This document shows positions 3,229 to 58,870 of a DNA stretch of 64,000 nucleotides, piece by piece. Made by a program: the position numbers and the translations under genes. This DNA comes from an uncultured Gammaproteobacteria bacterium (GTDB lineage: Bacteria > Patescibacteriota > Microgenomatia > Daviesbacterales > UBA10151), in NCBI GenBank assembly GCA_964500725.1, contig CAZCNP010000001.1, forward strand, positions 64,766 through 128,765, given 5' to 3'. A model generated the notes under the pieces. That model was not told where the DNA came from. It worked only from the letters and a program-made list of their open reading frames with translations, and did no database searches. Position 1 is the stretch's first letter, and every line of letters starts with the position of its first letter.

Positions 3229-3921
3229 ATGAAAATCTCTATCATTACTCTCTTTCCCCAAAGTTTTGAAACTATCTTAAACACTTCAATTTTAAAACGG
3301 GCTCAACAAAAAAAACTGGTAGAATTTGAACTTATTAACCTCCGTAATTTTGGAGAAGGCAGACATCAAGTAGTCGATGATAGACCCTACGGCGGAGGAG
3401 CTGGGATGGTTTTGAAAGCAGATATACTTGCCAAAGCAGTAAAATCTTTTTCCAAACTACGAACTGCGAACTATAAACTACGAACTATCTTAACTTCAGC
3501 CTCAGGTACTCCCTACAAACAATCAAAAGCTTTAAAGTTGTCTAAATTGGATCATATAGTCATAGTCTGTGGACATTATGAGGGAGTGGACCAAAGATTT
3601 ATTGAAAATTATATTGACGAGGAAATCTCCATTGGAGATTATATTTTAACAGGAGGGGAGATTCCAGCTATGGTTATTGCTGATTCTATAGTCAGACTTA
3701 TCCCAGGAGTTTTAGAAAAGCTAGAAGCCACTCAAAATGAGTCCTTCTCAGAAAACCTACTTGAGTATCCTCAATATACCAGGCCAGAGGAATTTGAAGG
3801 AAAAAAAGCGCCTGCAGTTTTGCTTTCTGGAAATCATGCTGAAATAAAAAAATGGCAGATGCAAAAATCACTGGAAAAAACCAAAAAAGTAAGAGGGGAT
3901 TTACTCACTCAAAAGGATTAG
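3229..3921 (+). CDS. trmD: tRNA (guanine37-N1)-methyltransferase
   Basis: MKISIITLFPQSFE...DDRPYGGGAGMVLKAD matches the TrmD N-terminus and SAM-binding loop. Confidence 0.85.
   Translation: MKISIITLFPQSFETILNTSILKRAQQKKLVEFELINLRNFGEGRHQVVDDRPYGGGAGMVLKADILAKAVKSFSKLRTANYKLRTILTSASGTPYKQSKALKLSKLDHIVIVCGHYEGVDQRFIENYIDEEISIGDYILTGGEIPAMVIADSIVRLIPGVLEKLEATQNESFSENLLEYPQYTRPEEFEGKKAPAVLLSGNHAEIKKWQMQKSLEKTKKVRGDLLTQKD
3455..3489. repeat. heptanucleotide tandem tract (aactNNN)x5 inside the trmD coding sequence
   Basis: aactacg aactgcg aactata aactacg aactatc. Confidence 0.7.
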
Positions 3922-4609
3922 CCTTACCTCTAGGCGAAACTGGTCCTGTTTCAGAAGGAGCAGAAATAAAAGTATTACTGCTTTCTGCCAGCTTACTTAA
4001 AACTTGACTTTCTTTTTCACTAAACCCTGCTAAAGGAGCATCTGCGCCTCCTGAAGCAGGTGCAACCTGGGCATATAAAACATCCAGTTTTAACGAAGCA
4101 TCAACAATTTGTGAATCAGCCCCGGAAGAAACATCAAAGCTGCTTACCCTAATAAGTCTGGATGAACCTTCTAAATTATTTAACAAAGTCTGAAACATTA
4201 TCCTTGCTCCCTTAACCTCCACCTGAACAGGGAAACTATTAATATTGCCTGATTTATTAGAACTGGTATTCAAGGAAATAGAAGTAAGGCTAAACCCAGC
4301 CTGACTAACCAATTGTTGCAGCAATCCTAATGTACCTCCATAATCTCTTTCAGGAGGCAAAGATTCTAAAGCAAGTCTAACATGCGCAGATAAATCATCT
4401 TGATTTAGACTTTCTAAGGCTATAACCTTAGTTTCTAAAATTTTAGATTTAGCCATTAATTCATCTGCATTTTTTTGATTACTTATTAAGTTACTTATTT
4501 GTGGATAAATTACAAAGACAATTAAAAATAAACAAGATAATGCAACAATGGTAGGAAAAAGAAATAATTTATATGTTTGATAAAATTTTATAATCTCTTC
4601 TTTTTTCAT
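3905..4609 (-). CDS. pilO: type IV pilus assembly protein PilO-like
   Basis: N-terminal TM segment plus coiled coil. Downstream of and overlapping pilN within the pilMNO arrangement. Confidence 0.55.
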   Translation of the reverse strand: MKKEEIIKFYQTYKLFLFPTIVALSCLFLIVFVIYPQISNLISNQKNADELMAKSKILETKVIALESLNQDDLSAHVRLALESLPPERDYGGTLGLLQQLVSQAGFSLTSISLNTSSNKSGNINSFPVQVEVKGARIMFQTLLNNLEGSSRLIRVSSFDVSSGADSQIVDASLKLDVLYAQVAPASGGADAPLAGFSEKESQVLSKLAESSNTFISAPSETGPVSPRGKANPFE

Positions 4610-5151
4610 ATGCCTTTAATTTTTAAACTCATTCTGTAAACCCCATCTCTGCCTCTGTTAAGACTATCTAGGGAGATTTTACTGATTTTATTCTCATTCG
4701 TCTCCTTGGTAGTCAGAGTGCTAACTATATTGTCTAAAGTAGTCGAATCAGGCACCGTAATCAACAAAGCAGCCTCTCCTGACTGATCAACGGTGATTGA
4801 ATTGATAACTACAGAAGAAGATAATAATTTATCAATTACTTGATAAAGCAAGGTTTGCTTTGAGGGCGTCCCTAAATATTGATCGATTGTTGTCAGCCTA
4901 TTTTTTAACAGGGACAATGAAGATTCTACACTTTGTAAACTGGAGACTCTTTGTTGCTGCTCGCTGACTTTGGCTTGCACTTCAACAACATTACGACTCT
5001 GTAAAACACTCAAAGCTACAGTTAAAGAGGCCAAAAAAATCATAATCAAAAAAACTGTTACCCCAGCAAACTGAATCTTGTAGAACTTTTTTCTCTTGGT
5101 ATACTCAGTCAGTATTTCAGGGGGCAGTAAATTAACTGCAATTTTTGCCAT
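4606..5151 (-). CDS. pilN: type IV pilus assembly protein PilN
   Basis: AVNLLPPEIL motif, single TM segment, coiled coil; follows pilM. Confidence 0.65.
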   Translation of the reverse strand: MAKIAVNLLPPEILTEYTKRKKFYKIQFAGVTVFLIMIFLASLTVALSVLQSRNVVEVQAKVSEQQQRVSSLQSVESSLSLLKNRLTTIDQYLGTPSKQTLLYQVIDKLLSSSVVINSITVDQSGEAALLITVPDSTTLDNIVSTLTTKETNENKISKISLDSLNRGRDGVYRMSLKIKGI

Positions 5152-5154
5152 CTT

Positions 5155-6192
5155 TTAATCCTCCCTTAAAGCCAAACCAACAGCAACAGAATAAGAAGGC
5201 GCGTCCTGAGAAAGTTTCATTACTGAGGCTTTATCACGAGTAATAGAATACCAGGGATCAGCTTCTTGAACCTCCAAGCCTAAAGCATTAGCAAGATAGA
5301 TTACTAAACCTGGCATCTTTGCTCCACCGCCTGAAACTACCACTCTTTTAACAGGGTTTTGGGGATATTTGGTATCAAAAGCCTGGATTACTCTTTTTCC
5401 CTCAGAGGCAATAATATCAACAATAGGCTTTAAAGCCTCATAGACTTTCCCCTCCAGTTGCTCTTCTGTAAGCCCATAAATTCTTTTATATTGCTCTGCC
5501 TGGTTTACCTCAAAATTAAAATGTTGAGCCAAAGCGCGTGTTAAGGCCAGTCCTCCTGTAGAGATGGACCTTGTAAACCAGATAAGACCTTTAGCAACCG
5601 CTGCAAAGTCAGTAGATGCAGCCCCAAGCTGCACAATTAAAGTAGTAGGGGAAAATGGGTTATTTCCTACCAAAGACCTGCTGACAGCAATAGCTTCTGT
5701 TTCCAGTATCCTTGGAGTAAGTCCTGCAAAATTTAATACTTGTAAGTACTTGGAAACTATCCTTTTAGGAGAGGCAATTACCAGTACTACAGTTCTGGCA
5801 TTTTTTTCTTTTTCATTTGATCTTACCAATACCTGCCAGTTCAAGTTTACATCATTTAAAGACATTGGAATAAACTCCTCAGCTGCATAACGGATTGTTG
5901 ATTGAAGCTCTGCATCAGTTAAGTAAGGAAGATCATCAATAACCCTGGTAAATACCCTTGATTCAGGCAGGGCTACCACTATTTCTTTAGTATCAATCTT
6001 GGTAGCTGCAAATAACTGCTTTATAGAATTTGCCAAAGCCTCCAAATCAACATCGGCATCAGAAATAAGTCCAGGTTGAGGTGAAAGAACTGTTCCTAAG
6101 GAAACAAGCTTATACTGCTCCCCATTTTTCTCAAGCGATACAACCTTTATCAAAGATGATCCAATATCTAAACCAACAGAAATTTTTCCCAT
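5155..6192 (-). CDS. pilM: type IV pilus assembly ATPase-fold protein PilM
   Basis: Actin-like fold. N-terminal ISVGLDIGSSLIKVV is the PilM/FtsA-type phosphate-1 motif. Confidence 0.75.
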   Translation of the reverse strand: MGKISVGLDIGSSLIKVVSLEKNGEQYKLVSLGTVLSPQPGLISDADVDLEALANSIKQLFAATKIDTKEIVVALPESRVFTRVIDDLPYLTDAELQSTIRYAAEEFIPMSLNDVNLNWQVLVRSNEKEKNARTVVLVIASPKRIVSKYLQVLNFAGLTPRILETEAIAVSRSLVGNNPFSPTTLIVQLGAASTDFAAVAKGLIWFTRSISTGGLALTRALAQHFNFEVNQAEQYKRIYGLTEEQLEGKVYEALKPIVDIIASEGKRVIQAFDTKYPQNPVKRVVVSGGGAKMPGLVIYLANALGLEVQEADPWYSITRDKASVMKLSQDAPSYSVAVGLALRED

Positions 6193-13538: not shown

Positions 13539-13575
13539 AACTTTAATTTAACACATAATCTTAAACTTTTGAACT

Positions 13576-14740: not shown

Positions 14741-14747
14741 ACCTTAT

Positions 14748-14782
14748 TCAATTGTCAATTGTCCAATGTTAATTGTCAATTG
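14748..14782. repeat. (tcaattg)x5 imperfect heptanucleotide tract immediately upstream of pilin 14285..14740
   Basis: CAATTG palindromes at 7-bp spacing. Confidence 0.8.
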
Positions 14783-14788
14783 TTTTAA

Positions 14789-16678
14789 TTAATTGGGAGT
14801 AAAGTTTATGGTAATAGTATAGATAGAATCATCATTTACTACATTTGAGAGGGAATCCTTATAGTAAGTTAGCACATCGCCATTACCATTCATCTGCTGG
14901 GTAACTGTTCTGGTTTTTCGAACACGATCACCTGCACCAACAGTCACTTCTTGTAAGTCAAATCCTGGAAAATCATTATATTGCTTAACGCGATCTAATC
15001 TATAAAGCCAACTATAATCCATATAAATAACACCAAATTTAAATCCATTGCCTCCTGTACCTACCTTCGTTTCGGTTACTGTCATAATTGCCAGACCTTT
15101 CCTGGGTGCCCGCCAAAAAATAACTGCTGTGTCAATCTGTCCTCCTAGAGAATGGCTTGGGGATAACATCATATAACTCGCTCCCCAAATATTACTATTA
15201 GGTGCTTTCCAATAAGGCTGTCCTGAAGGCACATCCATCCAAATTTCCGGTCCAGCTTCATAATTGGCCTGCTGTGTTGTGCCCCCATATTGCCAGACAT
15301 CTTGGCTGTAGTGGTAAAACCAGCAACGACTCCAGACAGGGTTATCTCCTGAGCATAAAGTAACATTTCCTAGGTTACCTGAATATTCGGAAGCCAAAGT
15401 ATGCGTTGATGGACAAGGCAAATTGGTACAAGTCCTTGAACTGTTACCTCCATCTAAGCTACTACAATCTGTGCCTTCGTTTGCAGGGGAGGGATTAGAA
15501 CAAGTTCTAGTTTGTGTGCCACTAGTACCACAAGCAGTTGCTGAACAAGCACTCCAATCAGACCATCCTCCATTAACAGGACATGCTTGAGTATTGCAAG
15601 CCACAGTTTCTGTTAAACCTCTTGTTACACCATCTGACAATAAACATTGAGATCCTCCATTGGCAGGAGAGGGATTTGTACAGGTTCTAGTTTGTGTGCC
15701 ACTAGTACCACAAGCTATGGCTGAACAACTACTCCAGGCAGTCCAAACACCATCAATCCTCTCCACCGGCCCTTGCTTTAATTTAATACTGACATCATAA
15801 CCTCGGCCATTACAAAGATAGCTTGAGTTATAATAATAAGGGCTTATAGCACCTGTGCTAGCGATAGTACTTGTGGAGTCTCGACTACTATAGTAAGCAA
15901 ATCCTCCTATACCCGGACATGTTCCATAACAGGAAGCCGTACAAGGTGTACACCGGTTTAAAATATTACTTAAATCAGAATTGCTTGGGCAACTCATGTA
16001 GACTGTTTTATTTGCTAGGCCGGCATCCGATGTTCTGCAATGGATGGCAGAAACAGTACTTAACATTGGCACAGTTGGACAAGCTGGACTAAGATCATAG
16101 GGAGTTGTTGTTCCACTTGAACCAATGGTAGAAACTGCTCCTGAAGGCAAAGTAGAACCATTATCATAGACTCCACCTCTAGAAATAGCAGCAATCAGAT
16201 TTTGAGCAGAAGCCCCTACAGATGTTTTACAATAACAATAATTCTGATTAGTTCCAGAAGCAAGACTATTTATACACTGCTGAGGAGTTACACCAGGAGG
16301 CGCGCTATCTAAAATACTACATGCTACAAATGACTTCCCGTCTGAACTGATAACATAATCATTGTCTTTAGGTGGAGTAGGCAAAGTGTTATTTACAAAA
16401 AATGAGGCAAGACTAGATAAACTGCTTAAAACAGGATAGCTAGCTGTTTTAATATTGTATTTTGACTCCATAACCTTGGCTATAGCATCAATATCTGCTT
16501 TTCTTTTAGTATCCCTGGCCTTTTGCCCAACTCCACTATACATTGTCAACCCAACCACACTTAACACCCCAATAATGGCTACTACTATCAAAAGCTCAAC
16601 TAAAGTAAACCCAGCACCACTTTTAGAACTCGGAAATGTGGTGCTGGGTAAACCCACACTTCTTTTTCTCATTTTCAT
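14789..16678 (-). CDS. pilin-like protein carrying two thrombospondin type-1 (TSP1) repeats and a Cys-rich C-terminal domain
   Basis: Leader SGAGFTLVELLIVVAIIGVL, plus WTAWSSCSAIACGTSGTQTRTCTNPSPANGGSQC and WSDWSACSATACGTSGTQTRTCSNPSPANEGTDC. Confidence 0.75.
   Translation of the reverse strand: MKMRKRSVGLPSTTFPSSKSGAGFTLVELLIVVAIIGVLSVVGLTMYSGVGQKARDTKRKADIDAIAKVMESKYNIKTASYPVLSSLSSLASFFVNNTLPTPPKDNDYVISSDGKSFVACSILDSAPPGVTPQQCINSLASGTNQNYCYCKTSVGASAQNLIAAISRGGVYDNGSTLPSGAVSTIGSSGTTTPYDLSPACPTVPMLSTVSAIHCRTSDAGLANKTVYMSCPSNSDLSNILNRCTPCTASCYGTCPGIGGFAYYSSRDSTSTIASTGAISPYYYNSSYLCNGRGYDVSIKLKQGPVERIDGVWTAWSSCSAIACGTSGTQTRTCTNPSPANGGSQCLLSDGVTRGLTETVACNTQACPVNGGWSDWSACSATACGTSGTQTRTCSNPSPANEGTDCSSLDGGNSSRTCTNLPCPSTHTLASEYSGNLGNVTLCSGDNPVWSRCWFYHYSQDVWQYGGTTQQANYEAGPEIWMDVPSGQPYWKAPNSNIWGASYMMLSPSHSLGGQIDTAVIFWRAPRKGLAIMTVTETKVGTGGNGFKFGVIYMDYSWLYRLDRVKQYNDFPGFDLQEVTVGAGDRVRKTRTVTQQMNGNGDVLTYYKDSLSNVVNDDSIYTITINFTPN
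15485..15750. repeat. two ~85-bp, ~90%-identical DNA segments 180 bp apart, encoding the two TSP1 repeats
   Basis: 15485-15570 versus 15665-15750. Also similar to 56105-56215 in the 1094-aa protein gene. Confidence 0.75.
16607..16655. repeat. pilin-leader hairpin repeat, copy B
   Basis: Same arms with a different loop. Here read in a different frame (GLPSTT...SGAGF) within pilin 14789..16678. Confidence 0.8.
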
Positions 16679-16920: not shown

Positions 16921-16922
16921 AA

Positions 16923-16953: not shown

Positions 16954-16963
16954 ACTTCTATCT

Positions 16964-17008: not shown

Positions 17009-17011
17009 ATT

Positions 17012-23316: not shown

Positions 23317-24243
23317 TTACTGCCCTAAATGAAGATACCAGTCAATAATTTGACTGCCCCAATATAGCATTATCAAACTTCCTAACACTAAAAATGGGCC
23401 AAAGGGGATTGTTTGGCCAAAATGCTTTTTACCCAGGAGTATCAGACCTACTGAAAATACAGCTCCTGTTAAAAATGATAAAATTAAAGCAACCAGGGCA
23501 TTAGGGAAGCCTAACATCAACCCTATAAAAGCCCCTAACTTAACATCCCCTCCACCCATACCTTTACCGCGGGTTATAATAATCAAGCTTAAGAAAAAAC
23601 CTCCAATTGCTAGCCCCATTAAAATAGATAACAAAAATGGCTGGGCAGTAATCAAAGCATGCCTTTGGAAATAATCACTATGTGGAGGAAGTAAGTATCT
23701 CCCCACTGGAGTCTGAGAAAGGTAAAAGTAAAGGTATCCAATCTTATATATGGTAAATAAAAATAGGGAAACTGCCCCCACAACAATAGCTGGCAAAATA
23801 ACCCTGTCTGGAATAAACATCTTTTTTAAATCTGTTAAAAAAAGAGCTGTTAAAACTGCTATAAAGAATATATTTAACAAAACTTCTATAACTTTAATTT
23901 GAAATTTGAAATTTGAAATTTGAAATTGAAGAGGGGAGAGACCTTGAAAGCTTTGAAAGAAAAGAAATCCTACCAATAATCCTACTGCCACCTCGACTAA
24001 TAAATACTCCATGCCAATTTTTTTCTTGCAATACCTGCATTTTCCAGCAAGCAGGATATAGGAGAAAATAGGAAAAAGGTCGTACCATCTAAGTTCTGTT
24101 TTGCAGAATAGACAATACGACCTTCCCTTAAAATACTTACCAATTAAACTTCGGTCAGCCAATACCTTCGTAAAACTCCCTAAAATAATGCCTATTAAAA
24201 ACCCGACTGACCCCCAAATGACCATTATGGCGCGTACGTACAA
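23317..24243 (-). CDS. pilD: prepilin peptidase (A24 family)
   Basis: N-terminal CxxC...CxxC zinc-finger region and catalytic GGGDVKLGAFIGLMLG motif. Confidence 0.85.
   Translation of the reverse strand: MYVRAIMVIWGSVGFLIGIILGSFTKVLADRSLIGKYFKGRSYCLFCKTELRWYDLFPIFSYILLAGKCRYCKKKIGMEYLLVEVAVGLLVGFLFFQSFQGLSPLQFQISNFKFQIKVIEVLLNIFFIAVLTALFLTDLKKMFIPDRVILPAIVVGAVSLFLFTIYKIGYLYFYLSQTPVGRYLLPPHSDYFQRHALITAQPFLLSILMGLAIGGFFLSLIIITRGKGMGGGDVKLGAFIGLMLGFPNALVALILSFLTGAVFSVGLILLGKKHFGQTIPFGPFLVLGSLIMLYWGSQIIDWYLHLGQ
23899..23926. repeat. (tttgaaa)x4 heptanucleotide tract inside the pilD coding sequence
   Basis: Four perfect copies; encodes FQISNFKFQI. Confidence 0.85.
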
Positions 24244-24873: not shown

Positions 24874-26076
24874 CTAAAATGATGTAGTTAATTTGTATAT
24901 TGGCAAAATAATGGAAATAACCAAAAATGCTACCCCTATACCCAAAATAACTAAAACTATTGGCTCAATTGCTACTGTTAGGTTTTTGATCAAGTGATCT
25001 GATTCTGATTCGAAAAAATCTGCCAGCTTGAAAAATATTTCATCAACCTTACCAGTTTCCTCACCTACTTTGACCATCTGGCCAACAATTTTAGGAAAAA
25101 CATTAGGATTTAAAAGTGAGGAAAAAGGCAACCCTTTTTCTACTCCTTTATAGGATTCTTTAATAGCATTTTTAAAAACAGGGTTATCTGTCAAATCACC
25201 CACAATCCCTATAGACTCCAGCAAAGGAATACCTGCAGAGGTCAAAAGACCAAAAGTGCGGTTAAAATTAGTTAAAGTTACAGAGGAAACCACCTTGCCT
25301 ACAATCGGAGTTTTTAGAATTAATTTACCAATTACCATACTTCCTCCAGGAGTTTTCTTCCATCTATGAATACCAACCACAGCTCCAACTAAAGCAATTA
25401 TCCCTGCCCACCAATAATTAACAAACATAGAAGAGGTACCTATTAATATTTTAGTAGGCAGAGGCAGCTCCATTGTTGACTGCTCATATAAGTTGGTAAG
25501 TTTGGGAATAACAAAAACCATCATAATTATAATGACTACTACCATCATTGACAAAACAACAATAGGATAAATCATTGCCCCCTTAACTTTGGCCTGAAAC
25601 TCCCTTTCTTTTTCCAAACTGTTAGCCATCTGCATAAGCACATTGTCAAGTTTGCCTGAAGTCTCACCGCTTTTGACTAAATTAACGTAAAGGCGGGGGA
25701 AAATATTAGGAAACTTTGATAAAGCCTGGGCTAGAGTTAAACCTCCTTTAATATCTTGGGAAATATCAGCAAGGGCTCTTTTTAAAGTTTTATTTACCTG
25801 TTGCTCTTCTAAAATATCTATAGCCTCCGATAAAACCAGACCACTGCCTACCATTGTTGCCAACTGTCTGGTAACTATCACTAACTCTGTAAAACTTACC
25901 TTGTTTAAAAACCGGTCTAAAAAAGTGTTCGCAGAGGAATTTTTAGGGTTTAGAGCAACTAAAATTAAGCCTTTTTTACGCACTGTTGAAGCAGCAGCAT
26001 GAGCATCTGGGGCTTCCACACTACCATTATGACTTGCTCCTTGTAAATCTTTAGCTTTGTACAGAAATTCAGCCAT
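24874..26076 (-). CDS. pilC: type IV pilus platform protein PilC (GspF family)
   Basis: Duplicated GspF-domain architecture with three TM segments. Confidence 0.8.
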   Translation of the reverse strand: MAEFLYKAKDLQGASHNGSVEAPDAHAAASTVRKKGLILVALNPKNSSANTFLDRFLNKVSFTELVIVTRQLATMVGSGLVLSEAIDILEEQQVNKTLKRALADISQDIKGGLTLAQALSKFPNIFPRLYVNLVKSGETSGKLDNVLMQMANSLEKEREFQAKVKGAMIYPIVVLSMMVVVIIIMMVFVIPKLTNLYEQSTMELPLPTKILIGTSSMFVNYWWAGIIALVGAVVGIHRWKKTPGGSMVIGKLILKTPIVGKVVSSVTLTNFNRTFGLLTSAGIPLLESIGIVGDLTDNPVFKNAIKESYKGVEKGLPFSSLLNPNVFPKIVGQMVKVGEETGKVDEIFFKLADFFESESDHLIKNLTVAIEPIVLVILGIGVAFLVISIILPIYKLTTSF

Positions 26077-27128
26077 TACTTTAGCAGTTTACTCAATAAT
26101 TCCGGCCTTAAGGCAAACTTTAATGCTACCTCCTGAGAAATCTTTCCCGCCCGCACTAAATTAGCCAGTGCCCGCTCCAAAGGCTGCATACCCAGTTCTG
26201 CTGATGTTTGTATAGTATTATCTATTAAATAAGTCTTGCCTTCTCTAATAATGCTTCTTACTGCAGGAGTAGCAAATAAGATTTCTGCTGCCAAAGTTCT
26301 TCCAGGCTGAATAGTAGGTATTAACCTTAGAGATAAAATTGCCTCCAAAGTGGCAGCAAGCTGTAATCTGATTTGAGATTGCTGCACCTCTGGGAAAACA
26401 TCAATAATTCTATCCATAGACTGCGAGGCTGAATTTGTATGAAGTGTTGCAAAAACTAAGTGCCCTGTTTCTGCAATAGTCATAGCCGATGAAATAGTTT
26501 CCAGATCTCTCATTTCACCTACTAAAACTACATCAGGATCTTCCCGCAGAGCTGCGCGCAAAGCATTATTCCAAGATTTAGTATCAGAAAACATTTCCCT
26601 TTGCTCTATTAAGGATTTACCAGCAGGATAGACATACTCAATTGGGTCTTCAACAGTTAAAATATGGGCTGAACGAGCTTGATTAATATAGTTGATAAAA
26701 GAGGCCAAAGCTGTGGATTTACCATGACCAGTTGGTCCTGTGACTAAAATAAAACCTTGCTTTAATTCCAGAAGCTTTGTGATATTAGCAGGCAAACCTA
26801 ATTCCTCAATTGTTGGTATCTTGTAGGGAATAAGTCTTAAGGCCACCCCAGAATTACCTTTTTGCTTGTATAAATTAGCCCTAAACCTGGCTTTTTTCTC
26901 AAATTCAAAAGAAAAATCAAGTTCTAAATTTTCTTTAAAAAGATTATATTGAGTTTCTGACAATAAAGGTCTGATCAGACTTTCAATCTGTTCCGGTGTA
27001 ATTGGCGTTTCCCCAGGCACAGGCAACAGTTCGCTATGAATCCGCAGCATTGGAGGAGAACCTACAGATAAGTGTAAGTCTGAAGCATTTCTTTGGATAG
27101 TCAAATCCAAAAGTTGAGTTATATTCAT
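26076..27128 (-). CDS. pilT: twitching-motility retraction ATPase PilT
   Basis: Walker A LVTGPTGHGKSTAL, PilT-like length, AIRNLIRE-like region (AVRSIIREGK). Confidence 0.85.
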   Translation of the reverse strand: MNITQLLDLTIQRNASDLHLSVGSPPMLRIHSELLPVPGETPITPEQIESLIRPLLSETQYNLFKENLELDFSFEFEKKARFRANLYKQKGNSGVALRLIPYKIPTIEELGLPANITKLLELKQGFILVTGPTGHGKSTALASFINYINQARSAHILTVEDPIEYVYPAGKSLIEQREMFSDTKSWNNALRAALREDPDVVLVGEMRDLETISSAMTIAETGHLVFATLHTNSASQSMDRIIDVFPEVQQSQIRLQLAATLEAILSLRLIPTIQPGRTLAAEILFATPAVRSIIREGKTYLIDNTIQTSAELGMQPLERALANLVRAGKISQEVALKFALRPELLSKLLK

Positions 27129-27131
27129 ATC

Positions 27132-28841
27132 CTAATCCTGGGCTACTCTTAGCACCTCCTCCATTGTGGTCACTCCTTCTATAACTTTTAAATACCCATC
27201 CTGCTTCATAGTAATCATCCCCTCAGAGACAGCTACTTCTTCAATCTCGCCGGAGGAGGCGTGTTCTAAAATTAGCTTGGAAATCGGCTCTAAAATAACC
27301 AGCACCTCAAAAATACCCACTCTTCCCAAATAACCAGTTTGAGCACAAGCAACACAACCTTTTCCTTTATAGAGCTTGAGCGTTGTGGCTTTGTCAGCTG
27401 GCAAGAATTTGCCTAAAACATGTTTAATATTTTCAGCAACTTCAGGAGGAACGCTAAGTTCAATCCTGCAGCGTGGGCAAATTTTACGCACAACACGCTG
27501 TCCCACTACAGCATTTAAAGAAGAAGTCAGCAAAAATGGCTCAATCCCCATATCTAAAAGCCTGGGAGGAGCGCCGGCAGAAGAGTTAGTATGAACAGTA
27601 GAAAAAACCTGGTGGCCAGTCAAAGCTGCCTGTATAGCCAAATCAGCTGTTTCTGTATCCCGAATTTCTCCTACCATTATAATATTAGGGTCTTGTCTTA
27701 AAAAGCTTCTTAAAGCTGAAGCAAAGGTAAGACCAATTTGGGTATTGGCTTGAACTTGATTTACTCCAGGAATCTGATACTCAACAGGGTCTTCAATGGT
27801 AACAATATTTACTTTAGTGGTAGAGATTTTACTCAAAACTGAATATAAAGTAGTAGTTTTACCAGAACCAGTTGGACCGCAGATTAAGATAATTCCATGA
27901 GGGCGGGTTAGCTGAGTTTCCAGATTTTTCAAAGAGGTTCCTCTCAACCCCAATTCTAAAAGAGTAGGGGCCCCGCTTGATTTAGGCAATAACCTTAAAA
28001 CCACTTTTTCTCCAAAAACAGTTGGCACAGTGGAAACCCTAATATCTACTGTACTTTGTTCATGAGTAAAGCTAAACCTGCCATCCTGAGGCAGCCTTTT
28101 TTCATCAATTTTGAGCACTGAAAGAATTTTAATCCTGGAAATTAAAGCATCATGCACCCCTTTGGGAAGCAAAATCTTTTCCTGTAGAATTCCATCAATT
28201 CTATATCTAACCCTGGTCCTGTCTTCTTGTGGCTCAATATGAATATCAGAAGCCCTGCTTTTTAAAGCATATTCCAAAAGCTGGTTGATAATATTGGAAA
28301 CTGGAGCCTCACGTAAGATTTCTGGAGCATTCTGAACTCCCTCGTCCATTTTTACCGACTCAACTTCTTTTAAGGCTGAGGTAACCTCAGAGGTTAGGTT
28401 TTGAGAGTACTGGTCAGAGATAACTTTGAGAATATCTTGTTCTTGGGCTAAAAATGGTTTGACCCTAAGCCCTGCTCTTTTTTCCACAAACTGAGCGATT
28501 TGAATATCCAAAGGGTCGGCCATTGCCACCCATAATTCTTCTCCTTTTTTGTCAAAAGGGATAATATGGTAACGGCGGGCAGCAGGTTCTGGAATTAAGT
28601 TTAAAATATCAGCAGAAATAGCCTGGCCTTCAAGCTTAATATAGGGGATATTTAAAATCTGGGCTTTGGCTTGGGTAATTTTGTCAGATGGAATTAGATT
28701 ATGTTGCAGCAGAATCTTTTCAACAGGTTGGCCTGAATTAATACTTTCAAGCTTAATAGAGGAGAGTTGATCAGAAGTTAAAAGACCCTGATTAAACAAT
28801 ATGTCTTCTAAAGCGCTATCTTGGACAGTTTGGTTTACCAT
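27132..28841 (-). CDS. pilB: type IV pilus assembly ATPase PilB (GspE family)
   Basis: Walker A ILICGPTGSGKTTTL and a tetracysteine CPRC...CVAC zinc motif. Confidence 0.85.
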   Translation of the reverse strand: MVNQTVQDSALEDILFNQGLLTSDQLSSIKLESINSGQPVEKILLQHNLIPSDKITQAKAQILNIPYIKLEGQAISADILNLIPEPAARRYHIIPFDKKGEELWVAMADPLDIQIAQFVEKRAGLRVKPFLAQEQDILKVISDQYSQNLTSEVTSALKEVESVKMDEGVQNAPEILREAPVSNIINQLLEYALKSRASDIHIEPQEDRTRVRYRIDGILQEKILLPKGVHDALISRIKILSVLKIDEKRLPQDGRFSFTHEQSTVDIRVSTVPTVFGEKVVLRLLPKSSGAPTLLELGLRGTSLKNLETQLTRPHGIILICGPTGSGKTTTLYSVLSKISTTKVNIVTIEDPVEYQIPGVNQVQANTQIGLTFASALRSFLRQDPNIIMVGEIRDTETADLAIQAALTGHQVFSTVHTNSSAGAPPRLLDMGIEPFLLTSSLNAVVGQRVVRKICPRCRIELSVPPEVAENIKHVLGKFLPADKATTLKLYKGKGCVACAQTGYLGRVGIFEVLVILEPISKLILEHASSGEIEEVAVSEGMITMKQDGYLKVIEGVTTMEEVLRVAQD

Positions 28842-52771: not shown

Positions 52772-53980
52772 TTACGGGCACAGGTTAAGGCCAGCATCAA
52801 ATTCCCTGCGCCAAATATTATAATCCTTAATATCAATCACTCCGTCTCCTTTTTGATTGTTGTTACACTCTGGATAGAAATCAGCTGTCTCAGTAGTTAC
52901 TGCTCCTACGAATTCACTATACCAGGTATTGTAATCATCAATACTCACACATAGATTTCCACCTATTGTATCCCCATTGATACAAGGAGGAATACATGTA
53001 TTAGTTGCTGAACAAATATATTCAGCGGTAGCGCAAGTTTTACTGGCTACAGTACAAGAGGCGCCAGTTACAGTAGTACAAGTACCACCAGTGGATAAGG
53101 TAGTTTTATTACAGGTTCCAGTTAAGTTAGTACCACAGGCTGTAGCAGTAGTACATACATCTGCAGCAGCAGTCCCACAGGTATCACAACCAGCGCAGGC
53201 TTGGGTATTACATGCTGTCACTGCTGATCTGGTTTCTGTCCTATTAGTAGCGGTAGTTAGAGTACCATCAAGTTTTGTACATTCTGTCCCACCAGCACCA
53301 GGTGCAGGTGCAGAGCATGTCCTGGTTTCTCCGGTTAAAGTACCTCCTCCACATGTTACAGTACAAGTGCCACCACTCCAAGCAGACCAGGTACCATTAG
53401 TAGGACCTGCAATAGTATAAGTAGTAGTTGTTGTACCTCCAATAGCCACGGTACCTGCTTGATCTTTGGCAACAATCTGATTGGTAGTAATAGTAATTGT
53501 AGCTGTCCCTGCGCTAATAGCTGTAAAAGTAAGCTTTCCTAGCGGAACATAAGTCCGGGAAACTAAATCACCAGTCTTGCTAACAGCAACATAATGCACA
53601 GTTATAGGATTTACAGCAGGATTTCTACTTTCCAATACCAATTCCGGTAAAACAGTCGTATCTTTTGAAAAAGTATCCAGCCTCAGGTTATTAGCATAGG
53701 TAATAGTTACATCCACGCCGGTAATCCGTGCCGCCGGATTCAAATTAATGCCAAATTCAAGATCAAAGACGCTGTTTATATTCACAGATCCTGTTGGGGT
53801 AGGTGGTATAAATACCAAACTGCCAGCATCAGTTGCTTTTGAACGCAAATCCTGTTGTTGTTTGGCCAAATAAAAAGTTACAGGTATACCAATCACAACC
53901 ACTAAAATTATAATCAGGACTAAGATATGTCCCTGCAGCAAATTCCTAACATCAATTAATTTCTCTTTTATGTTATTCAT
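52772..53980 (-). CDS. membrane-anchored protein with a TSP1 repeat, a Cys/Thr-rich region and a C-terminal dockerin-like module
   Basis: WSAWSGGTCTVTCGGGTLTGETRTCSAP ... GDGVIDIKDYNIWRREF. Confidence 0.55.
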   Translation of the reverse strand: MNNIKEKLIDVRNLLQGHILVLIIILVVVIGIPVTFYLAKQQQDLRSKATDAGSLVFIPPTPTGSVNINSVFDLEFGINLNPAARITGVDVTITYANNLRLDTFSKDTTVLPELVLESRNPAVNPITVHYVAVSKTGDLVSRTYVPLGKLTFTAISAGTATITITTNQIVAKDQAGTVAIGGTTTTTYTIAGPTNGTWSAWSGGTCTVTCGGGTLTGETRTCSAPAPGAGGTECTKLDGTLTTATNRTETRSAVTACNTQACAGCDTCGTAAADVCTTATACGTNLTGTCNKTTLSTGGTCTTVTGASCTVASKTCATAEYICSATNTCIPPCINGDTIGGNLCVSIDDYNTWYSEFVGAVTTETADFYPECNNNQKGDGVIDIKDYNIWRREFDAGLNLCP

Positions 53981-55585: not shown

Positions 55586-58500
55586 CTAGCGATTTGAAAC
55601 TCCCAGATACAATACTGATTTATCTCCACAGCTATACCAATTCCATCCACCTGCGGATATGGGGTAGGAAACATATGGATTGCCTGAACAAGCTTTAGAG
55701 TTTGATTGAACATCAACTATAACTGCATAATTACCTCCACTATTTAAAGTAAAACTGGCAGAATATGAAGAAGCAGTTGAAGATCCGACTTCATACCAAA
55801 CACAATTTAGAGAAGAAGCATTAACACAATTAAATTTGTTAATATTATATCCCAAAATATCAGAGCTAGTGATACGAGTCCTGTCTGTTCCATCATTTGA
55901 CTTGGCAATATAAATATGGCTGCCAGTTACAGAGGATGAGGAACTGATACCAGCATTAAAAGTTACTGCCTGGCCTAAGATTGCTGTATTAGGCCCACTA
56001 ATTGAAGCTGTGGGATATGAGGAATCACCAACTACAGAAGATGCGCATGGACGGCTGTTACAAGATTGGTTTTGGGATGAATCGCCGGAACAATCAGTAC
56101 CTCCATTGGCAGGAGTAGGGTTAGTACAAGTTCTGCTTCTTGTCTGATTTCCACTACCACAGCTTACAGAACAAACAGACCAACTACTCCAGGCTGACCA
56201 TCCTCCATTAACTGCAGCGGGAGCTACTGTTGGAGCAGCTGTAGCAGATGGAACAGGAGTAGCAGCAGGTGCTGTGGTTGGAGCTGTGGTTGGAGTTGTG
56301 GTTGGAGCAGTAGTAGGAACTGGTGTTGAAGCAACTGTAGCAGCTGGAACAGGAGTAGCAGCAGAGGCTAACACTATTTTGAGTTGATGAATTATTTCTC
56401 TGCCTTTATTGGTTTTAAACTTAACAAAGATAAATTTATCTCCTGGAGCAGTGGAGAAGGTATGGGAAACTTTAATATTATCTGTATAATTTAATTCAGA
56501 ACCCCATTCAGTATCACCAGTAGGTCTATTATCATAGGCTACCTGATATTTAATGGTATATTCAGGAGACTGTGTAGGAGAGGGGGATGGATTTGCTGAA
56601 GAAACAACTAAATCAATTTTTGATGAAGTACCACAACTGTAAAAAGTCATGCCTCCACTAGTAACAGGATAAGTAGTATATGGATTACCACTGCATAATC
56701 TCTGATTAGCATTAGCCCCAGATGGCTTTGCGTTTACAATTATTTTATAATTACCAGACTGAAGAGGGGTAAAACTTGTTACAACTCTATTCTCATTACT
56801 ACTACCTAGTTTGTACCAAATACAACCATCTCCATCACAATTGAAATTACTTTGACTGAGGTTTGCTATATCATTACTATTTATCTTTGATCCCTGGCCA
56901 TTGTTATCTCTGGCTACCCAGATATCACTGTTTTCTATACCAGTTGAACTGACAAGTGAGGCAATATAACTCAAACTCTGACCAACACTACCTTCACCCG
57001 GACCTCTTAACATAGCACTAGGATGATCTACAGGAGTAAGCAAAGGCAGTTGCAGAGTAGCCAAACCAATATCATGGAACAAATATCCCCCCATATCACT
57101 GCCTGTTCCTCCTGAATTATTTCCCCACCCATCTCTTGCTCCAAAATATAAGAAAAGTTTAGAATTATCAGGAGACTCAACTACTGTTGGTAGGTTAATC
57201 GAAACATTAGTTTGAGGATTATTAAACTTCATCCAAGGGAAAGGCCCTGCTTGAGTAATAATTTGCGCCCTGTTTTCTCCAGGCCATTTAGCTAAAGGAT
57301 TTTTGGTCCAGAAAGCGTCAACTCTTGGAAGACCTCCAGAAATAGCATTGTAAAACATCACATGATTACCGCTGCCTTGATCAAAATAATAAATAGGCCC
57401 TTCTTCTGCTGTTCCAATCTTAGTTGCTTGATCTATGGGAGTAAAAAGAGGGTTCCCGCTCCAAGGAGTCCAAGGGCCAAGGGGGGAGGAAGATGAGGTA
57501 GCGTAACCTGAAGTAATAGCATGGCAACCTGCTTCGCCATCTCCTTGATGCCCACCTGTTCCTTCCCATTTGCCATTTTCATATTGTGTTTGTCCTGCTA
57601 AAAACAGTACCCAAGTCCCATTAATTTGATGAGGTACCCCATTGGCAGTTATATAATCACAACCCCATATCATATTACCTCCACTACAACTTCTTATTTG
57701 TTGTTGACAATAATTTAGATCAGCAGGTACCACAACAGAAGAATTTTGGGAAATTCTGGTAAAAGGACCCAAAGGAGAGTTAGCCTCAGACAAACCTGAT
57801 CTGGCAGGATACCTGCTACTTCCATCACCATTTGGAAGTTGGGTAGCTAAATCCCAGTAAAGGACACTCCCATCCACAGGGTGCCAGGCTTCCCAGGTGT
57901 AGGCATACCATTTGCCATTGTACGGAAAAACATTGGCATACATAAATGATGTTCCAGAAAATCCTGCCGTTTCTGATTCTCTTTCCCATTCACCTTTAGC
58001 TCCTAAAACCTTTAAAGGTCCCTTTTTGGTAAAGTTAATTCCGTCAGAAGAGGTAGCCACACAAGATTTCCAACCTATTACTTCCTCTAAGTTTCTATTA
58101 AAATCCAAAGATCCAGGAAAATCGGTTGGAGTAGAAACACCAGCATCAGTTACCCTTTCCAGTTGCACACCATCCCAGAAACTGGTAAATCTAGTTGCTG
58201 TTGGGGTAGCAAAGGAAATAGTTACAGCCTTAGCATTTGAGTCAGTGGTAAATTTGACATAAATTCTTTGCCAATTATTATTTCCTCTCTTAATCACTGA
58301 TGCAGTGGAAGAATCAATAACATTTTCTGCAAAGTTTCTTGGATCAGATTTATATTGCTTAACAATTAGCCCCATTTCTGTATTAGAATCAGCCCAAAAA
58401 TAGGCAGAGGCAATATATGTAGTATTGGGGGTTACTAAAAGCCCCATTGGTGAGGCTAAATTAGCCTCAGTATGATTATTATTATAATAATAATTACCTG

Positions 58501-58870
58501 TATAAGCCCCTCCTCCCTTGGTACCATCTGTTTCAACTTTTAAACTTCTTTCTCCAAACAACTTCTTTTCTGAAACTGAGGAAACACTAGCGTGCCAGGT
58601 ATCCCAACCATTTACTCCTAAATTACTCTCAAAAGATGGATTTAATAGATTCTCAGTACAATCATAGTAAAGATAATAAGTTCCATTATCTTTAACTACA
58701 AATGGATCCCTGGCTCCCAGCAAATCATGATAGCTGCTATTGCCCCAACGGATTACTGGTTGGGAATAAATTTGGGGATTTGCAATATTGTCTGTAGCTG
58801 CTCCCAACACCGAAGCAGGGGAAAAGGGGAGAAGTAATATAGAAAATAAGGCAATAATAATCTTTTTCAT
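55586..58870 (-). CDS. 1094-aa secreted multidomain protein: glycoside-hydrolase-like beta-propeller with CBM4_9-like insert, Thr/Pro linker, TSP1 repeat, Ig-like C-terminal repeats
   Basis: Signal peptide; [15 protein letters not shown] (GH43/32-like); NPSFESNLG (CBM4_9-like); [28 protein letters not shown] (TSP1). Confidence 0.6.

What the first reader, a model, noticed from the sequence alone, without database searches (positions are those of the whole stretch)
14789..16678. Pilin fused to thrombospondin type-1 repeats; TSP1 coding DNA shared among three surface proteins
The prepilin-leader protein 14789..16678 carries two textbook TSP1 repeats (W-S-x-W-S...C-S-x-T-C-G-x-G-x-Q-x-R-x-R-x-C), ~90% identical to each other at DNA level. 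Further TSP1 repeats sit in 52772..53980 and in the 1094-aa protein. The 1094-aa protein's copy (56105-56215) shares ~80% DNA identity with the pilin copies, including an identical 'gaccatcctccattaac'. TSP1 domains are characteristically eukaryotic adhesion modules. A pilin-TSP1 fusion is a candidate pilus-tip adhesin, possibly for attachment to a host cell surface in an episymbiont.
Basis: partly seen in the sequence, partly recalled or inferred. Interest (0 to 1): 0.7.

Follow-up and report, generated by a model that had tools for sequence, protein, structure and literature searches.

The report
Type IV pilin carrying thrombospondin repeats
A pilus subunit of an uncultured Daviesbacteria (CPR) bacterium carries two genuine thrombospondin type-1 repeats and an uncharacterised beta-sandwich domain, so it is a new example of the known "modular pilin" way of putting adhesion modules on a pilus, and such repeats turn out to be fairly common in prokaryotes.

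Summary
The ORF 14789..16678 (-) is real and intact (629 aa). The identical protein is in NCBI for a Candidatus Daviesbacteria MAG.

**What it contains**
- A canonical prepilin N-terminus (G|FTLVE). Pfam N_methyl scores above threshold.
- Two thrombospondin type-1 repeats (TSRs). Pfam TSP_1 scores 27.7 bits against a cutoff of 21.6.
- An AlphaFold2 model of the two TSRs (pLDDT 86) best matches human thrombospondin-1 TSRs (E 1e-9).
- The gene lies in a complete type IV pilus locus (PilB/T/C/D/M/O, at least 12 pilin genes, two LamG-lectin pilins).

**Best reading**
It is a five-part modular pilin: pilin head, flexible linker, Cys-rich domain, two TSRs, and a C-terminal jelly-roll domain. The jelly-roll domain has only 10 relatives among 1.84 billion representative proteins. 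I think the TSRs most likely act as a disulfide-stapled stalk that presents the distal jelly-roll as the binding module.

- The pilin repeats are a reduced, apparently prokaryote-only subtype (two Trp, one Arg, C-x4-C), not textbook TSRs.
- DNA identities are 76% and 71%, not 90% and 80%.
- A codon test shows no DNA sharing among the three window genes.
- TSRs are widespread in prokaryotes, especially Patescibacteria.

**Novelty**
The pilin–TSP1–TSP1 architecture is already listed once in a 2021 catalogue of modular pilins. This is a new member of a known kind, of moderate interest.

The parts
14789..16678 (-). Whole gene: 629-aa modular type IV pilin. The identical protein is in NCBI for a Candidatus Daviesbacteria MAG (GCA_016198315.1, contig JACQIW010000013.1).
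   Evidence: ORF; Pfam N_methyl + TSP_1; exact match P0001
16610..16678 (-). Class III signal (leader) peptide, aa 1-23, ending in Gly-1 before FTLVE. The ATG overlaps the TGA of the upstream GIY-YIG ORF (ATGA), and an AAGGA sits upstream. The leader is long: close relatives have 5-6 aa.
   Evidence: Sequence read; relatives P0027/P0038/P0040/P0050
16196..16609 (-). Mature pilin head, aa 24-161: hydrophobic alpha1-N with Glu5 (FTLVELLIVVAIIGVLSVVGL), then a globular part with 4 Cys. It is 45-70% identical to the heads of pilins that carry other cargo.
   Evidence: N_methyl 24.8 bits; BLAST to P0027/38/40/50; paralogous to at least 8 other pilin genes in the window; head-only search
16085..16195 (-). 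Ser/Gly/Thr-rich linker, aa 162-198, presumed flexible.
   Evidence: Sequence composition; the flexibility is inference
15755..16084 (-). Cys-rich middle domain, aa 199-308 (CPxVPxL...C...YxxCP...), with no Pfam family. It is homologous to the middle domain of another pilin-TSR fusion, P0091.
   Evidence: No Pfam hit; phmmer to P0091 E 9.5e-8; sequences
15578..15754 (-). TSR1, aa 309-367: 6 Cys, 2 Trp, long variant (..CLLSDGVTRGLTETVAC..).
   Evidence: Pfam TSP_1; custom HMM 47.1 bits; AF2 model pLDDT 86 and Foldseek match to TSP-1 TSRs
15410..15577 (-). TSR2, aa 368-423: 6 Cys, 2 Trp. A tandem duplicate of TSR1 that shares codons with it above expectation.
   Evidence: Pfam; custom HMM 42.0 bits; codon test P=0.002; model
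14792..15409 (-). C-terminal domain, aa 424-629, ending ...TITINFTPN. It is a jelly-roll/beta-sandwich belonging to a rare, undescribed family.
23317..24243 (-). Prepilin peptidase PilD (context: the processing enzyme).
   Evidence: Pfam A24_N_bact + Peptidase_A24
24874..28841 (-). PilC platform protein, PilT-like retraction ATPase and PilB assembly ATPase (context: the machinery).
   Evidence: Pfam T2SSF and T2SSE
3905..6192 (-). PilM, a candidate PilN (no family match), and PilO (context: the machinery).
   Evidence: Pfam PilM_2; PilO
56042..56209 (-). Canonical TSR ([25 protein letters not shown]...) in the 1094-aa secreted protein.
   Evidence: Pfam TSP_1 47.5 bits; custom HMM 83 bits
53192..53398 (-). 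Divergent TSR with a long insertion, in the 402-aa protein of the cohesin/dockerin cluster.
   Evidence: Missed by Pfam; custom HMM 37.5 bits, E 3e-11; ortholog P0058 has 4 TSRs

Best explanation
The gene encodes a modular type IV pilin of a Candidatus Daviesbacteria (Patescibacteria/CPR) bacterium.

**Shown**
- It has a class III signal peptide with G-1/F+1/E+5.
- A PilD peptidase and a full PilB/PilT/PilC/PilM/PilO machinery lie in the same locus.
- Its pilin head is homologous to the heads of other pilins.
- It has two bona fide TSRs, each with six Cys.
- It ends in a jelly-roll domain.

**Inferred**
- PilD cleaves after Gly23, and the head is polymerised into the pilus as a low-abundance subunit. 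It would sit at the tip, or sparsely along the shaft, which the 37-residue S/G/T linker would allow.
- The Cys-rich domain and the two TSRs form a thin, disulfide-stapled stalk. Each TSR is about 5 nm long (my knowledge of the TSP-1 TSR crystal structure).
- The stalk holds the C-terminal jelly-roll domain away from the filament. That domain binds a surface ligand, probably a glycan or a protein on a partner or host cell or substrate.
- PilT-driven retraction would then pull the cell onto the target.

The locus encodes several alternative cargo-bearing pilins: two LamG-lectin pilins, a 352-aa pilin and this one. It therefore looks like a repertoire of adhesin-presenting subunits.
For: **Pilin identity and machinery**
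- Pfam N_methyl and TSP_1 both score above their curated cutoffs.
- The sequence has G|FTLVE.
- PilD, PilC, PilT and PilB and PilM and PilO are on the same strand in the same locus.
- At least 8 paralogous pilin heads are in the window.

**Cargo swapping on a shared head**
- The same head, at 45-70% identity, carries unrelated cargo in P0027, P0038, P0040 and P0050. More distant relatives P0137 and P0139 (35-37% identity) carry a CBM_4_9 module.
- Two LamG_3 pilins are in the locus.

**TSR fold**
- The AF2 model has pLDDT 86.1.
- The best PDB matches are human TSP-1 TSRs 7yyk, 3r6b and 1lsl, E 1e-9 to 5e-9.

**TSRs as stalk rather than ligand site**
- Each repeat has only 2 basic against 3-4 acidic residues, and one Arg of the ladder.
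- In other prokaryotic proteins, TSRs sit between unrelated domains: cohesin, dockerin, PG_binding and SprB.

**Jelly-roll as effector**
- It is distal.
- It is fused directly to pilins by a Pro-rich linker in P0125 and P0128.
- Its fold resembles the gingipain adhesin domain, CBM51/4/22/61 and MAM domains.

**Concept precedent**
- Modular pilins PilB (vWA) and PilC (lectin) of S. sanguinis are experimentally shown adhesins, and 264 architectures have been catalogued (PMC8179133).
- Lectin-like minor pilins and T4P-dependent host binding are reported in Saccharibacteria (PMC11623550).
Against: - There is no experimental data for this protein or any close relative.
- Neither the pilin head nor the full-length protein could be modelled.
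- The leader is 23 aa, against 5-6 aa in relatives. The true start, or the processing, could therefore differ.
- The head resembles major-type (T2SSG-like) pilins rather than the tip-complex minor pilins, so a tip location is unproven.
- Whether Daviesbacteria are episymbionts is not known from these data.
- Formation of 13 disulfides (26 Cys) outside the cell is assumed.
Confidence: 0.6

Rival explanations
1. The TSRs themselves are the adhesive element. As in thrombospondin, properdin or apicomplexan TRAP, the repeat face would bind a glycan or protein on a host or partner cell. The C-terminal domain would be accessory.
For: - TSRs are ligand-binding modules in all characterised eukaryotic proteins (established knowledge).
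- The fold is conserved.
- TSRs recur on otherwise different pilins, P0091 and P0111 (5 TSRs), which suggests they add something of their own.
- TSRs are enriched in lineages that live on or in other cells: Patescibacteria, DPANN, Bdellovibrionales and Rickettsiales.
Against: - The pilin repeats lack the third Trp and the second Arg of the Trp-Arg ladder, and their net charge is -1 to -2. This is unlike the basic, glycosaminoglycan-binding face of TSP-1 TSRs (the comparison with TSP-1 is from my knowledge).
- They are internal, not distal.
- None of the 81 other prokaryotic TSR ORFs sampled has a prepilin motif upstream of its TSRs. In the hits, TSRs lie next to many unrelated domains, as a spacer would.
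- The enrichment is biased, because the query alignment was built from CPR-like units.
Confidence: 0.2
2. The protein is not built into a pilus. The class III signal peptide and hydrophobic helix only export it and anchor it in the membrane, as archaeal substrate-binding proteins use pilin-type signals. It would then be a cell-surface-tethered adhesin or sensor.
For: - The cargo is very large (about 470 aa beyond the head).
- The leader is unusually long.
- Modular pilin-like proteins with enzymatic or binding cargo are catalogued without proof of assembly (PMC8179133).
Against: - The head is full length and closely related to ordinary 150-aa pilins in the same locus.
- Glu5, needed for subunit docking in T4P (established knowledge), is kept.
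- The gene is embedded among pilin genes and machinery.
- S. sanguinis PilB, with a comparably bulky cargo (processed protein 50.5 kDa), is assembled into pili (PMC8179133).
Confidence: 0.12
3. The TSRs were recently acquired by horizontal transfer from a eukaryote (an animal or protist host), and the fusion is a lineage-specific accident with little function.
For: - The highest-scoring database hits by total bits are animal multi-TSR proteins such as SCO-spondin and coadhesin.
- The cargo part of the gene has somewhat higher GC (0.42-0.46) than its flanks (0.31-0.37).
Against: - The high total bit scores come from many repeats per animal protein. Per unit, the nearest relatives of the pilin TSRs are all prokaryotic at 55-67% identity, against 32-50% for animal proteins.
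- The W2/C-x4-C subtype was found only in unnamed metagenomic proteins and in loci from prokaryotic genome records.
- The same long+short two-TSR cassette occurs on contigs with Gammaproteobacteria-like gene order.
- All six Cys are kept in both copies, and an independent pilin, P0091, shares the middle domain plus a TSR.
- The higher GC is also seen in the other Cys/Gly/Thr-rich surface genes.
Confidence: 0.05

Closest known systems
Modular type IV pilins (Raynaud et al. 2021, PMC8179133), e.g. Streptococcus sanguinis PilB (pilin + vWA) and PilC (pilin + concanavalin-A-like lectin)
   Same: An N-terminal IPR012902 pilin module is fused through a linker to non-pilus 'effector' modules. The gene sits in a T4P locus with other cargo-bearing (LamG) pilins. 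The paper's Dataset S1 already lists the architecture IPR012902-IPR000884-IPR000884 (N_methyl-TSP1-TSP1) for one protein.
   Different: The cargo here has four units (Cys-rich domain, 2 TSRs, novel jelly-roll) instead of one. No TSR-bearing pilin has been studied. The organism is an uncultured CPR bacterium. There is no evidence of assembly or binding.
Thrombospondin type-1 repeats of eukaryotes (TSP-1 TSR2-3, properdin, F-spondin, apicomplexan TRAP; Pfam PF00090)
   Same: Pfam scores above threshold. Each unit has six Cys. It has the WxxW motif, the QxR strand and the CxNPxPxxGGxxC motif. The predicted three-stranded elongated fold best matches 7yyk, 3r6b and 1lsl at 38-40% identity.
   Different: It has two rather than three Trp and one Arg rather than RxR. 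It has one extra residue between Cys1 and Cys2 (CSATACG against CSVTCG). Net charge is acidic. The C-mannosylation and O-fucosylation machinery is eukaryotic and not expected here. In this sample the subtype occurs only in proteins without eukaryote names and in prokaryotic genome loci.
Lectin-like minor pilins of Saccharibacteria T4P (Grossman et al. 2024, PMC11623550)
   Same: A CPR bacterium with a T4P locus holding many pilins, some with predicted carbohydrate-binding cargo. T4P are shown there to mediate binding to the host bacterium.
   Different: A different phylum-level lineage (Daviesbacteria/Microgenomates) and a different cargo (TSRs plus an unknown jelly-roll). There are no genetics or imaging here.
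Other pilin-TSR fusions found here: P0091 (517 aa: pilin, the same Cys-rich domain, 1 TSR, DUF1554) and P0111 (806 aa: T2SSG pilin, 5 TSRs, Gly-rich tail)
   Same: Both have a prepilin N-terminus followed by TSRs. P0091 also shares the middle domain (E 9.5e-8).
   Different: They differ in number of TSRs and in distal domain. P0111 sits on a contig that also encodes an OmpA-family protein, which suggests an outer membrane. These are apparently independent fusions.

Membership tests
Type IV pilin (class III signal peptide protein) | N-terminal methylation/cleavage motif (Pfam PF07963 / IPR012902) scoring above the curated threshold | tested here: met
   24.8 bits against a cutoff of 21.2, aa 22-42
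Type IV pilin (class III signal peptide protein) | Gly at -1, a hydrophobic residue at +1 (Phe), Glu at +5, followed by about 20 hydrophobic residues (alpha1-N) | tested here: met
   ...SGAG|FTLVELLIVVAIIGVLSVVGL
Type IV pilin (class III signal peptide protein) | A cognate prepilin peptidase and assembly machinery encoded in the genome | tested here: met
   PilD 23317-24243; PilC, PilT and PilB 24874-28841; PilM 5155-6192; PilO 3905-4609
Type IV pilin (class III signal peptide protein) | A globular alpha-beta pilin head packed on alpha1-C | tested here: inconclusive
   The head is homologous to other pilins, but no structure model of the head could be made.
Type IV pilin (class III signal peptide protein) | Cleavage, N-methylation and incorporation into filaments | not testable with these tools
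   Needs biochemistry or microscopy
Thrombospondin type-1 repeat (Pfam TSP_1 PF00090) | Profile HMM score at or above the gathering threshold | tested here: met
   27.7 bits against 21.6, two stretches. An independent HMM of 733 units scores 47.1 and 42.0 bits.
Thrombospondin type-1 repeat (Pfam TSP_1 PF00090) | Six conserved Cys per repeat (three disulfides) | tested here: met
   6 Cys in each of TSR1 and TSR2. Disulfide formation itself was not tested.
Thrombospondin type-1 repeat (Pfam TSP_1 PF00090) | WxxWxxW tryptophan ladder interleaved with an RxRxR arginine ladder | tested here: inconclusive
   Only WxxW (2 Trp) and a single Arg (TQTRTC) in the pilin units. The full motif is present in the 1094-aa protein.
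Thrombospondin type-1 repeat (Pfam TSP_1 PF00090) | An elongated three-stranded TSR fold | tested here: met
   AF2 pLDDT 86.1. Foldseek top hits are TSP-1 TSRs 7yyk, 3r6b and 1lsl (E 1e-9 to 5e-9), then properdin, C6 and Unc5.
Modular pilin (sensu Raynaud et al. 2021) | [quoted passage not shown] | tested here: met
   N_methyl + 2 x TSP_1. The architecture is listed in Dataset S1 of PMC8179133.
Carbohydrate-binding module / lectin (for the C-terminal domain) | Sequence membership in a described CBM, lectin or adhesin family | tested here: not met
   No Pfam hit at E<=10 other than noise, and no PDB sequence match
Carbohydrate-binding module / lectin (for the C-terminal domain) | A beta-sandwich/jelly-roll fold like CBMs | tested here: met
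Carbohydrate-binding module / lectin (for the C-terminal domain) | Demonstrated ligand binding | not testable with these tools
   Needs glycan arrays or binding assays

The most novel reading that the evidence does not exclude
TSRs would not be a eukaryotic invention occasionally borrowed by bacteria. Instead they would be an old, widespread prokaryotic surface module with its own subtype (two Trp, C-x4-C). This module would be concentrated in cell-associated lineages (Patescibacteria, DPANN, Bdellovibrio-like predators, Rickettsiales). It would be actively shuffled, as a DNA cassette, among pilins, cohesin/dockerin scaffolds and secreted enzymes. The Daviesbacteria pilin would then be one snapshot of a TSR-based attachment toolkit for episymbiosis.
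Probability: 0.25. Interest if true: 0.65.

Novelty: new member of a known kind. Interest (0 to 1): 0.42.

Why it matters
How ultrasmall CPR bacteria recognise and hold on to partner cells is largely unknown. In the few cultured Saccharibacteria, type IV pili and lectin-like minor pilins are implicated (PMC9894109, PMC11623550).

This locus offers a concrete, testable candidate from an uncultured lineage. It is a pilin displaying a disulfide-rich TSR stalk and a previously undescribed jelly-roll domain, alongside two LamG-lectin pilins.

The finding also corrects a common assumption. TSRs are not rare in prokaryotes, and they form at least one subtype seen here only in prokaryotic and unnamed metagenomic proteins. 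That bears on the origin of a domain usually discussed only for animals and apicomplexans.

The practical value is modest until binding or localisation is shown.

Tried and rejected
**Full-length or N-terminal (aa 1-430) structure model**
- Four alignments (A4-A7) mixed pilin heads, TSR cassettes and C-terminal fragments.
- MAFFT pulled heads and middle-domain fragments onto the TSR block each time, so I dropped this approach.
- I modelled the TSR pair (A8) and the C-terminal domain (A2) separately instead.

**Family assignment of the middle and C-terminal domains**
- Pfam at E<=10 gave nothing usable.
- A PDB sequence search also gave nothing usable.

**afdb50 fold search of the C-terminal domain**
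- The library was unavailable.

**Context of P0091**
- It lies only on 2.5-3.3 kb contigs, which are uninformative.

**Literature on TSP1 in CPR or bacteria**
- I found no paper on TSP1 in CPR bacteria.
- Hits concerned type-3 repeats (bioRxiv 10.1101/2023.11.21.568195) or eukaryotes (PMC3417536).

**Recent DNA exchange between the pilin TSRs and the 1094-aa or 402-aa copies in this window**
- I rejected this by the codon test.

**tRNA and Rfam scan of the window, to place the organism**
- Nothing was found.
- The organism was identified from the exact protein match instead.

**Search for a pilin-TSR ortholog in the sister genome**
- I could not pursue it.
Full report
**The observation**

The minus-strand ORF 14789..16678 is intact and encodes 629 aa. 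Pfam gives three results for it:
- TSP_1 (PF00090) scores 27.7 bits against a gathering score of 21.6, in two stretches (aa 311-366 and 371-422).
- N_methyl (PF07963) scores 24.8 bits against 21.2, at aa 22-42.
- TSP1_spondin is below threshold.

The 1094-aa protein (55586..58870) has one strong TSR: TSP_1 47.5 bits, aa 892-942. The 402-aa protein (52772..53980) gets no Pfam hit even at E<=10.

I built an HMM from 733 TSR units extracted from the database hits. It scores the 402-aa protein 37.5 bits (E 3e-11) over the full model. It scores the pilin units 47.1 and 42.0 bits and the 1094-aa unit 83 bits. No other ORF in the window scores.

The quantitative claims are too high:
- The two pilin units are 76% identical in DNA over the 114-nt core, and 82% over the best 103 nt.
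- The pilin units and the 1094-aa copy are 71% identical.
- Both values are in line with the 68-73% amino-acid identity.

I also ran a synonymous-codon test. For positions with identical amino acids, it compares the number of identical codons with the expectation from the window's own codon usage.
- TSR1 against TSR2 shows an excess: 20 of 31 against 12.0 expected, P=0.002.
- The pilin against the 1094-aa or 402-aa copies shows none (P=0.14-0.50).
- This points to a fairly recent tandem duplication inside the pilin gene. It gives no sign of DNA exchange among the three window genes.

The 'textbook' consensus applies only to the 1094-aa protein. The pilin units read W-x-x-W-S-x-C-S-A-x-A-C-G-T-S-G-T-Q-T-R-T-C. 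They have two Trp, one Arg and an extra residue between Cys1 and Cys2. Each has six Cys.

**Organism and context**

The identical protein is in NCBI as a 'prepilin-type N-terminal cleavage/methylation domain-containing protein' of a Candidatus Daviesbacteria MAG. The assembly is GCA_016198315.1, contig JACQIW010000013.1.

The gene lies in a complete type IV pilus locus on the minus strand:

| Component | Coordinates |
|---|---|
| PilB | 27132-28841 |
| PilT-like ATPase | 26076-27128 |
| PilC | 24874-26076 |
| PilD prepilin peptidase | 23317-24243 |
| PilM | 5155-6192 |
| PilO | 3905-4609 |

The locus also holds at least 12 genes with prepilin motifs. Two of them carry Laminin_G_3 lectin-like domains (11832-13040 and 20070-21152). 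One 352-aa pilin has unassigned cargo (18965-20023).

The N-terminus reads ...SGAG|FTLVELLIVVAIIGVLSVVGL, with Gly-1, Phe+1 and Glu+5. The ATG overlaps the stop of an upstream GIY-YIG ORF (ATGA), and AAGGA sits upstream. The leader is 23 aa, whereas the closest relatives have 5-6 aa.

**Anatomy**

| Part | Residues | Notes |
|---|---|---|
| Leader | 1-23 | Class III signal peptide |
| Pilin head | 24-161 | Homologous to other pilin heads |
| S/G/T-rich linker | 162-198 | Presumed flexible |
| Cys-rich middle domain | 199-308 | No Pfam family |
| TSR1 | 309-367 | 6 Cys |
| TSR2 | 368-423 | 6 Cys |
| C-terminal domain | 424-629 | Jelly-roll, rare family |

*Head.* It is 45-70% identical to the heads of metagenomic pilins P0027, P0038, P0040 and P0050, whose C-terminal parts are unrelated to ours. 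A head-only search found further relatives, some carrying CBM_4_9. One head family therefore carries interchangeable cargo.

*Middle domain.* It has no Pfam family. It is homologous to the equivalent region of P0091 (E 9.5e-8). P0091 is a 517-aa protein with the order pilin, this domain, one TSR, DUF1554.

*TSR pair.* Modelled with a clean 30-sequence alignment, it gives mean pLDDT 86.1. Its best PDB matches are the human thrombospondin-1 TSRs 7yyk, 3r6b and 1lsl (E 1e-9 to 5e-9, 38-40% identity). These are followed by properdin, C6 and Unc5. The low TM-scores reflect the inter-domain angle of an elongated two-domain model.

*C-terminal domain.*
- It has no Pfam or PDB sequence match.
- An exhaustive phmmer search over 1.84 billion representative proteins found only 10 relatives, with E-values from 4e-18 to 1.5e-4.
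- In those relatives the domain is usually C-terminal, ends ...TFTPN and is about 180 aa. It occurs twice in P0123.
- Two relatives are pilins, where a Pro-rich linker joins the domain directly to the head (P0125, P0128). Others carry dockerin-like, LamG-like or other surface-protein regions.
- The AF2 model from a 12-sequence alignment has pLDDT 73.8 and pTM 0.77. It is a beta-sandwich/jelly roll.

**How it most likely works**

The shown elements fit the modular-pilin concept established for S. sanguinis PilB and PilC (PMC8179133). These elements are the prepilin signal, PilD, the machinery with a retraction ATPase, a head shared with ordinary pilins, and cargo joined by a flexible linker.

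I infer the following sequence:
1. PilD cleaves after Gly23.
2. The head is incorporated at low abundance, at the tip or sparsely along the shaft.
3. The Cys-rich domain and the two TSRs make a thin, disulfide-stapled stalk of roughly 10 nm (TSR length from my knowledge of the TSP-1 structure).
4. The distal jelly-roll domain binds the ligand.

I favour the TSRs as stalk rather than as the binding site for four reasons:
- They are internal, not distal.
- Each has only 2 basic against 3-4 acidic residues and a truncated Trp-Arg ladder.
- In other prokaryotic proteins, TSRs sit between many unrelated domains such as cohesin, dockerin, PG_binding_1 and SprB.
- The jelly-roll domain is found directly on other pilins.

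The alternative, that the TSRs themselves bind, is not excluded. P0111 is a pilin with five TSRs and no recognisable distal globular domain.

Host attachment in an episymbiosis is plausible by analogy with Saccharibacteria, where T4P and lectin-like minor pilins are implicated (PMC9894109, PMC11623550). Nothing here shows it for Daviesbacteria.

**Are TSRs 'eukaryotic'?**

By total score, the top hits of the whole protein are animal multi-TSR proteins (SCO-spondin, coadhesin). That is because they hold many repeats.

Per cassette, the closest relatives (55-67% identity) are unnamed metagenomic proteins of the same CSATACGxSGTQTRTC subtype. They even share the same long+short pair organisation. 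Two of them lie on contigs with typical gammaproteobacterial neighbourhoods, next to reprolysin-like and LRR proteins.

A scan of one genome per prokaryotic species used two narrow peptide patterns and found 136 confirmed TSR stretches. The best 80 loci break down as follows:

| Group | Loci |
|---|---|
| Patescibacteria (Paceibacterota, Saccharibacteria, Nomura-, Moran-, Yanofsky-, Gracilibacteria) | about 43 |
| Gammaproteobacteria/Azotimanducaceae | 10 |
| Rickettsiales | 4 |
| Bdellovibrio-like bacteria or Myxococcales | 4 |
| DPANN archaea | 3 |
| Omnitrophota | 2 |
| Planctomycetales | 2 |

The query alignment was built from CPR-like units, so the CPR share is biased upward.

Further results on subtype and nearest neighbours:
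- The two-Trp/C-x4-C subtype occurs only in metagenomic proteins without eukaryote names and in prokaryotic genome loci in this sample.
- The nearest units to the pilin TSRs are all prokaryotic.
- The canonical unit of the 1094-aa protein is equidistant from animal and prokaryotic units.
- None of the 81 TSR-bearing ORFs in those loci has a prepilin motif before the TSRs.

The pilin-TSR fusion is therefore rare among TSR proteins. It has arisen at least three times: this protein, P0091 and P0111.

**A partial rescue of the 'shared DNA' idea**

Locus L005 is labelled as an uncultured Gammaproteobacteria MAG. It is syntenic with window 48.6-55.2 kb at about 85% nucleotide identity, so it is a close relative of this genome.

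Its ortholog of the 402-aa protein (P0058, 504 aa) has four TSRs in the order A-B-B-A. A is the 402 type. B is the pilin type (VNGAWSAWSACSATACGTSGTQTRTC...). The window protein has one A unit followed by an unrelated Cys/Thr-rich stretch.

Unit B shares codons with pilin TSR2 above expectation: 20 of 32 against 12.1 expected, P=0.003. TSR units of the pilin subtype have therefore moved between the pilin and the cohesin/dockerin-cluster gene within this lineage. TSR number also varies between close relatives.

**Comparison with what is known, and novelty**

Modular pilins are an established class. More than 1,200 proteins and 264 architectures have been catalogued, many from CPR phyla (PMC8179133). 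That paper's Dataset S1 already lists IPR012902-IPR000884-IPR000884 once.

I found no paper discussing TSP1 repeats in CPR bacteria or on pilins.

The protein is therefore a new, uncharacterised member of a known kind. Three elements are new here:
- recognition of the four-unit cargo,
- the rare C-terminal domain family,
- the picture of a prokaryote-only TSR subtype that is shuffled among surface proteins.

I score interest as moderate, at 0.42.

**Limits**

- There is no experimental evidence.
- There is no model of the head or of the full-length protein.
- The fold matches of the jelly-roll domain are generic.
- The taxonomic census is pattern-biased and capped at 80 loci.
- The direction of any ancient transfer between eukaryotes and prokaryotes is unresolved.

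Noticed in passing
window 16675-16920 (-) and 16678: An 81-aa GIY-YIG ORF ends with a TGA that overlaps the pilin ATG (ATGA). The pilin leader is 23 aa, against 5-6 aa in its closest relatives. Insertion of the GIY-YIG gene may have re-created the start of the pilin gene.
   Followed up: partly
window 11178-24243: Selfish or defence-type genes sit between the pilin genes: NYN (11178-11813), PIN_3 plus a small antitoxin-like ORF (13576-14224), and three AbiEii nucleotidyltransferases (17286-17939, 18200-18874, 22428-23072). This part of the pilus locus looks like a variable island of pilin cassettes.
   Followed up: partly
window 11832-13040, 20070-21152, 18965-20023 (-): There are three more large pilins in the same locus. 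Two carry Laminin_G_3 lectin-like domains (101 and 94 bits). One, of 352 aa, has cargo that matches no Pfam family.
   Followed up: partly
window 48646-60918: A second surface-protein cluster holds cohesin-like proteins (49566-50312), a dockerin/cohesin protein (50993-52768), the 402-aa and 404-aa proteins with dockerin-like C-termini, and the 1094-aa TSR protein. It is flanked by a tyrosine recombinase gene at 48646-49569 (Pfam Phage_integrase) and by a recombinase-like ORF at 59902-60918 (judged from its sequence only; no Pfam scan). It may be an island.
   Followed up: partly
L005 5395-6939 versus window 52772-53980: A contig labelled 'uncultured Gammaproteobacteria' (CAYQAW010000002.1) is syntenic with the window at about 85% nucleotide identity, so the label is probably wrong. 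Its ortholog of the 402-aa protein has four TSRs (A-B-B-A), where the window protein has one TSR plus an unrelated Cys/Thr-rich stretch (window gene nt 804-992).
   Followed up: yes
L085 6408-10421: The 806-aa pilin with five TSRs (P0111) lies directly next to a PMT-family protein O-mannosyltransferase and near three other T2SSG-type pilins. A glycosyltransferase beside a TSR protein is curious, because eukaryotic TSRs are glycosylated.
   Followed up: no
window 14792-15409 (-); P0121-P0130: The C-terminal domain defines a very small undescribed family: 10 relatives among 1.84 billion representatives. It has invariant Trp, Gly and Asp positions and a terminal TFTPN motif. It is found on pilins and on proteins with dockerin-like or LamG-like regions, and it occurs in tandem in P0123.
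   Followed up: partly
window 55586-58870 (-): In the 1094-aa protein the TSR sits between two similar modules of about 110 aa (...[22 protein letters not shown]... and ...[22 protein letters not shown]...). These give a weak Y_Y_Y match. The N-terminal half has a sub-threshold CBM_4_9 match, and the region at aa 260-620 is unassigned.
   Followed up: no
L003 and L004: On contigs with Gammaproteobacteria-like gene order, the closest TSR cassettes (P0046, P0092) lie next to reprolysin-like metalloprotease and LRR protein genes. This resembles the ADAMTS-type pairing of protease and TSR in animals.
   Followed up: no
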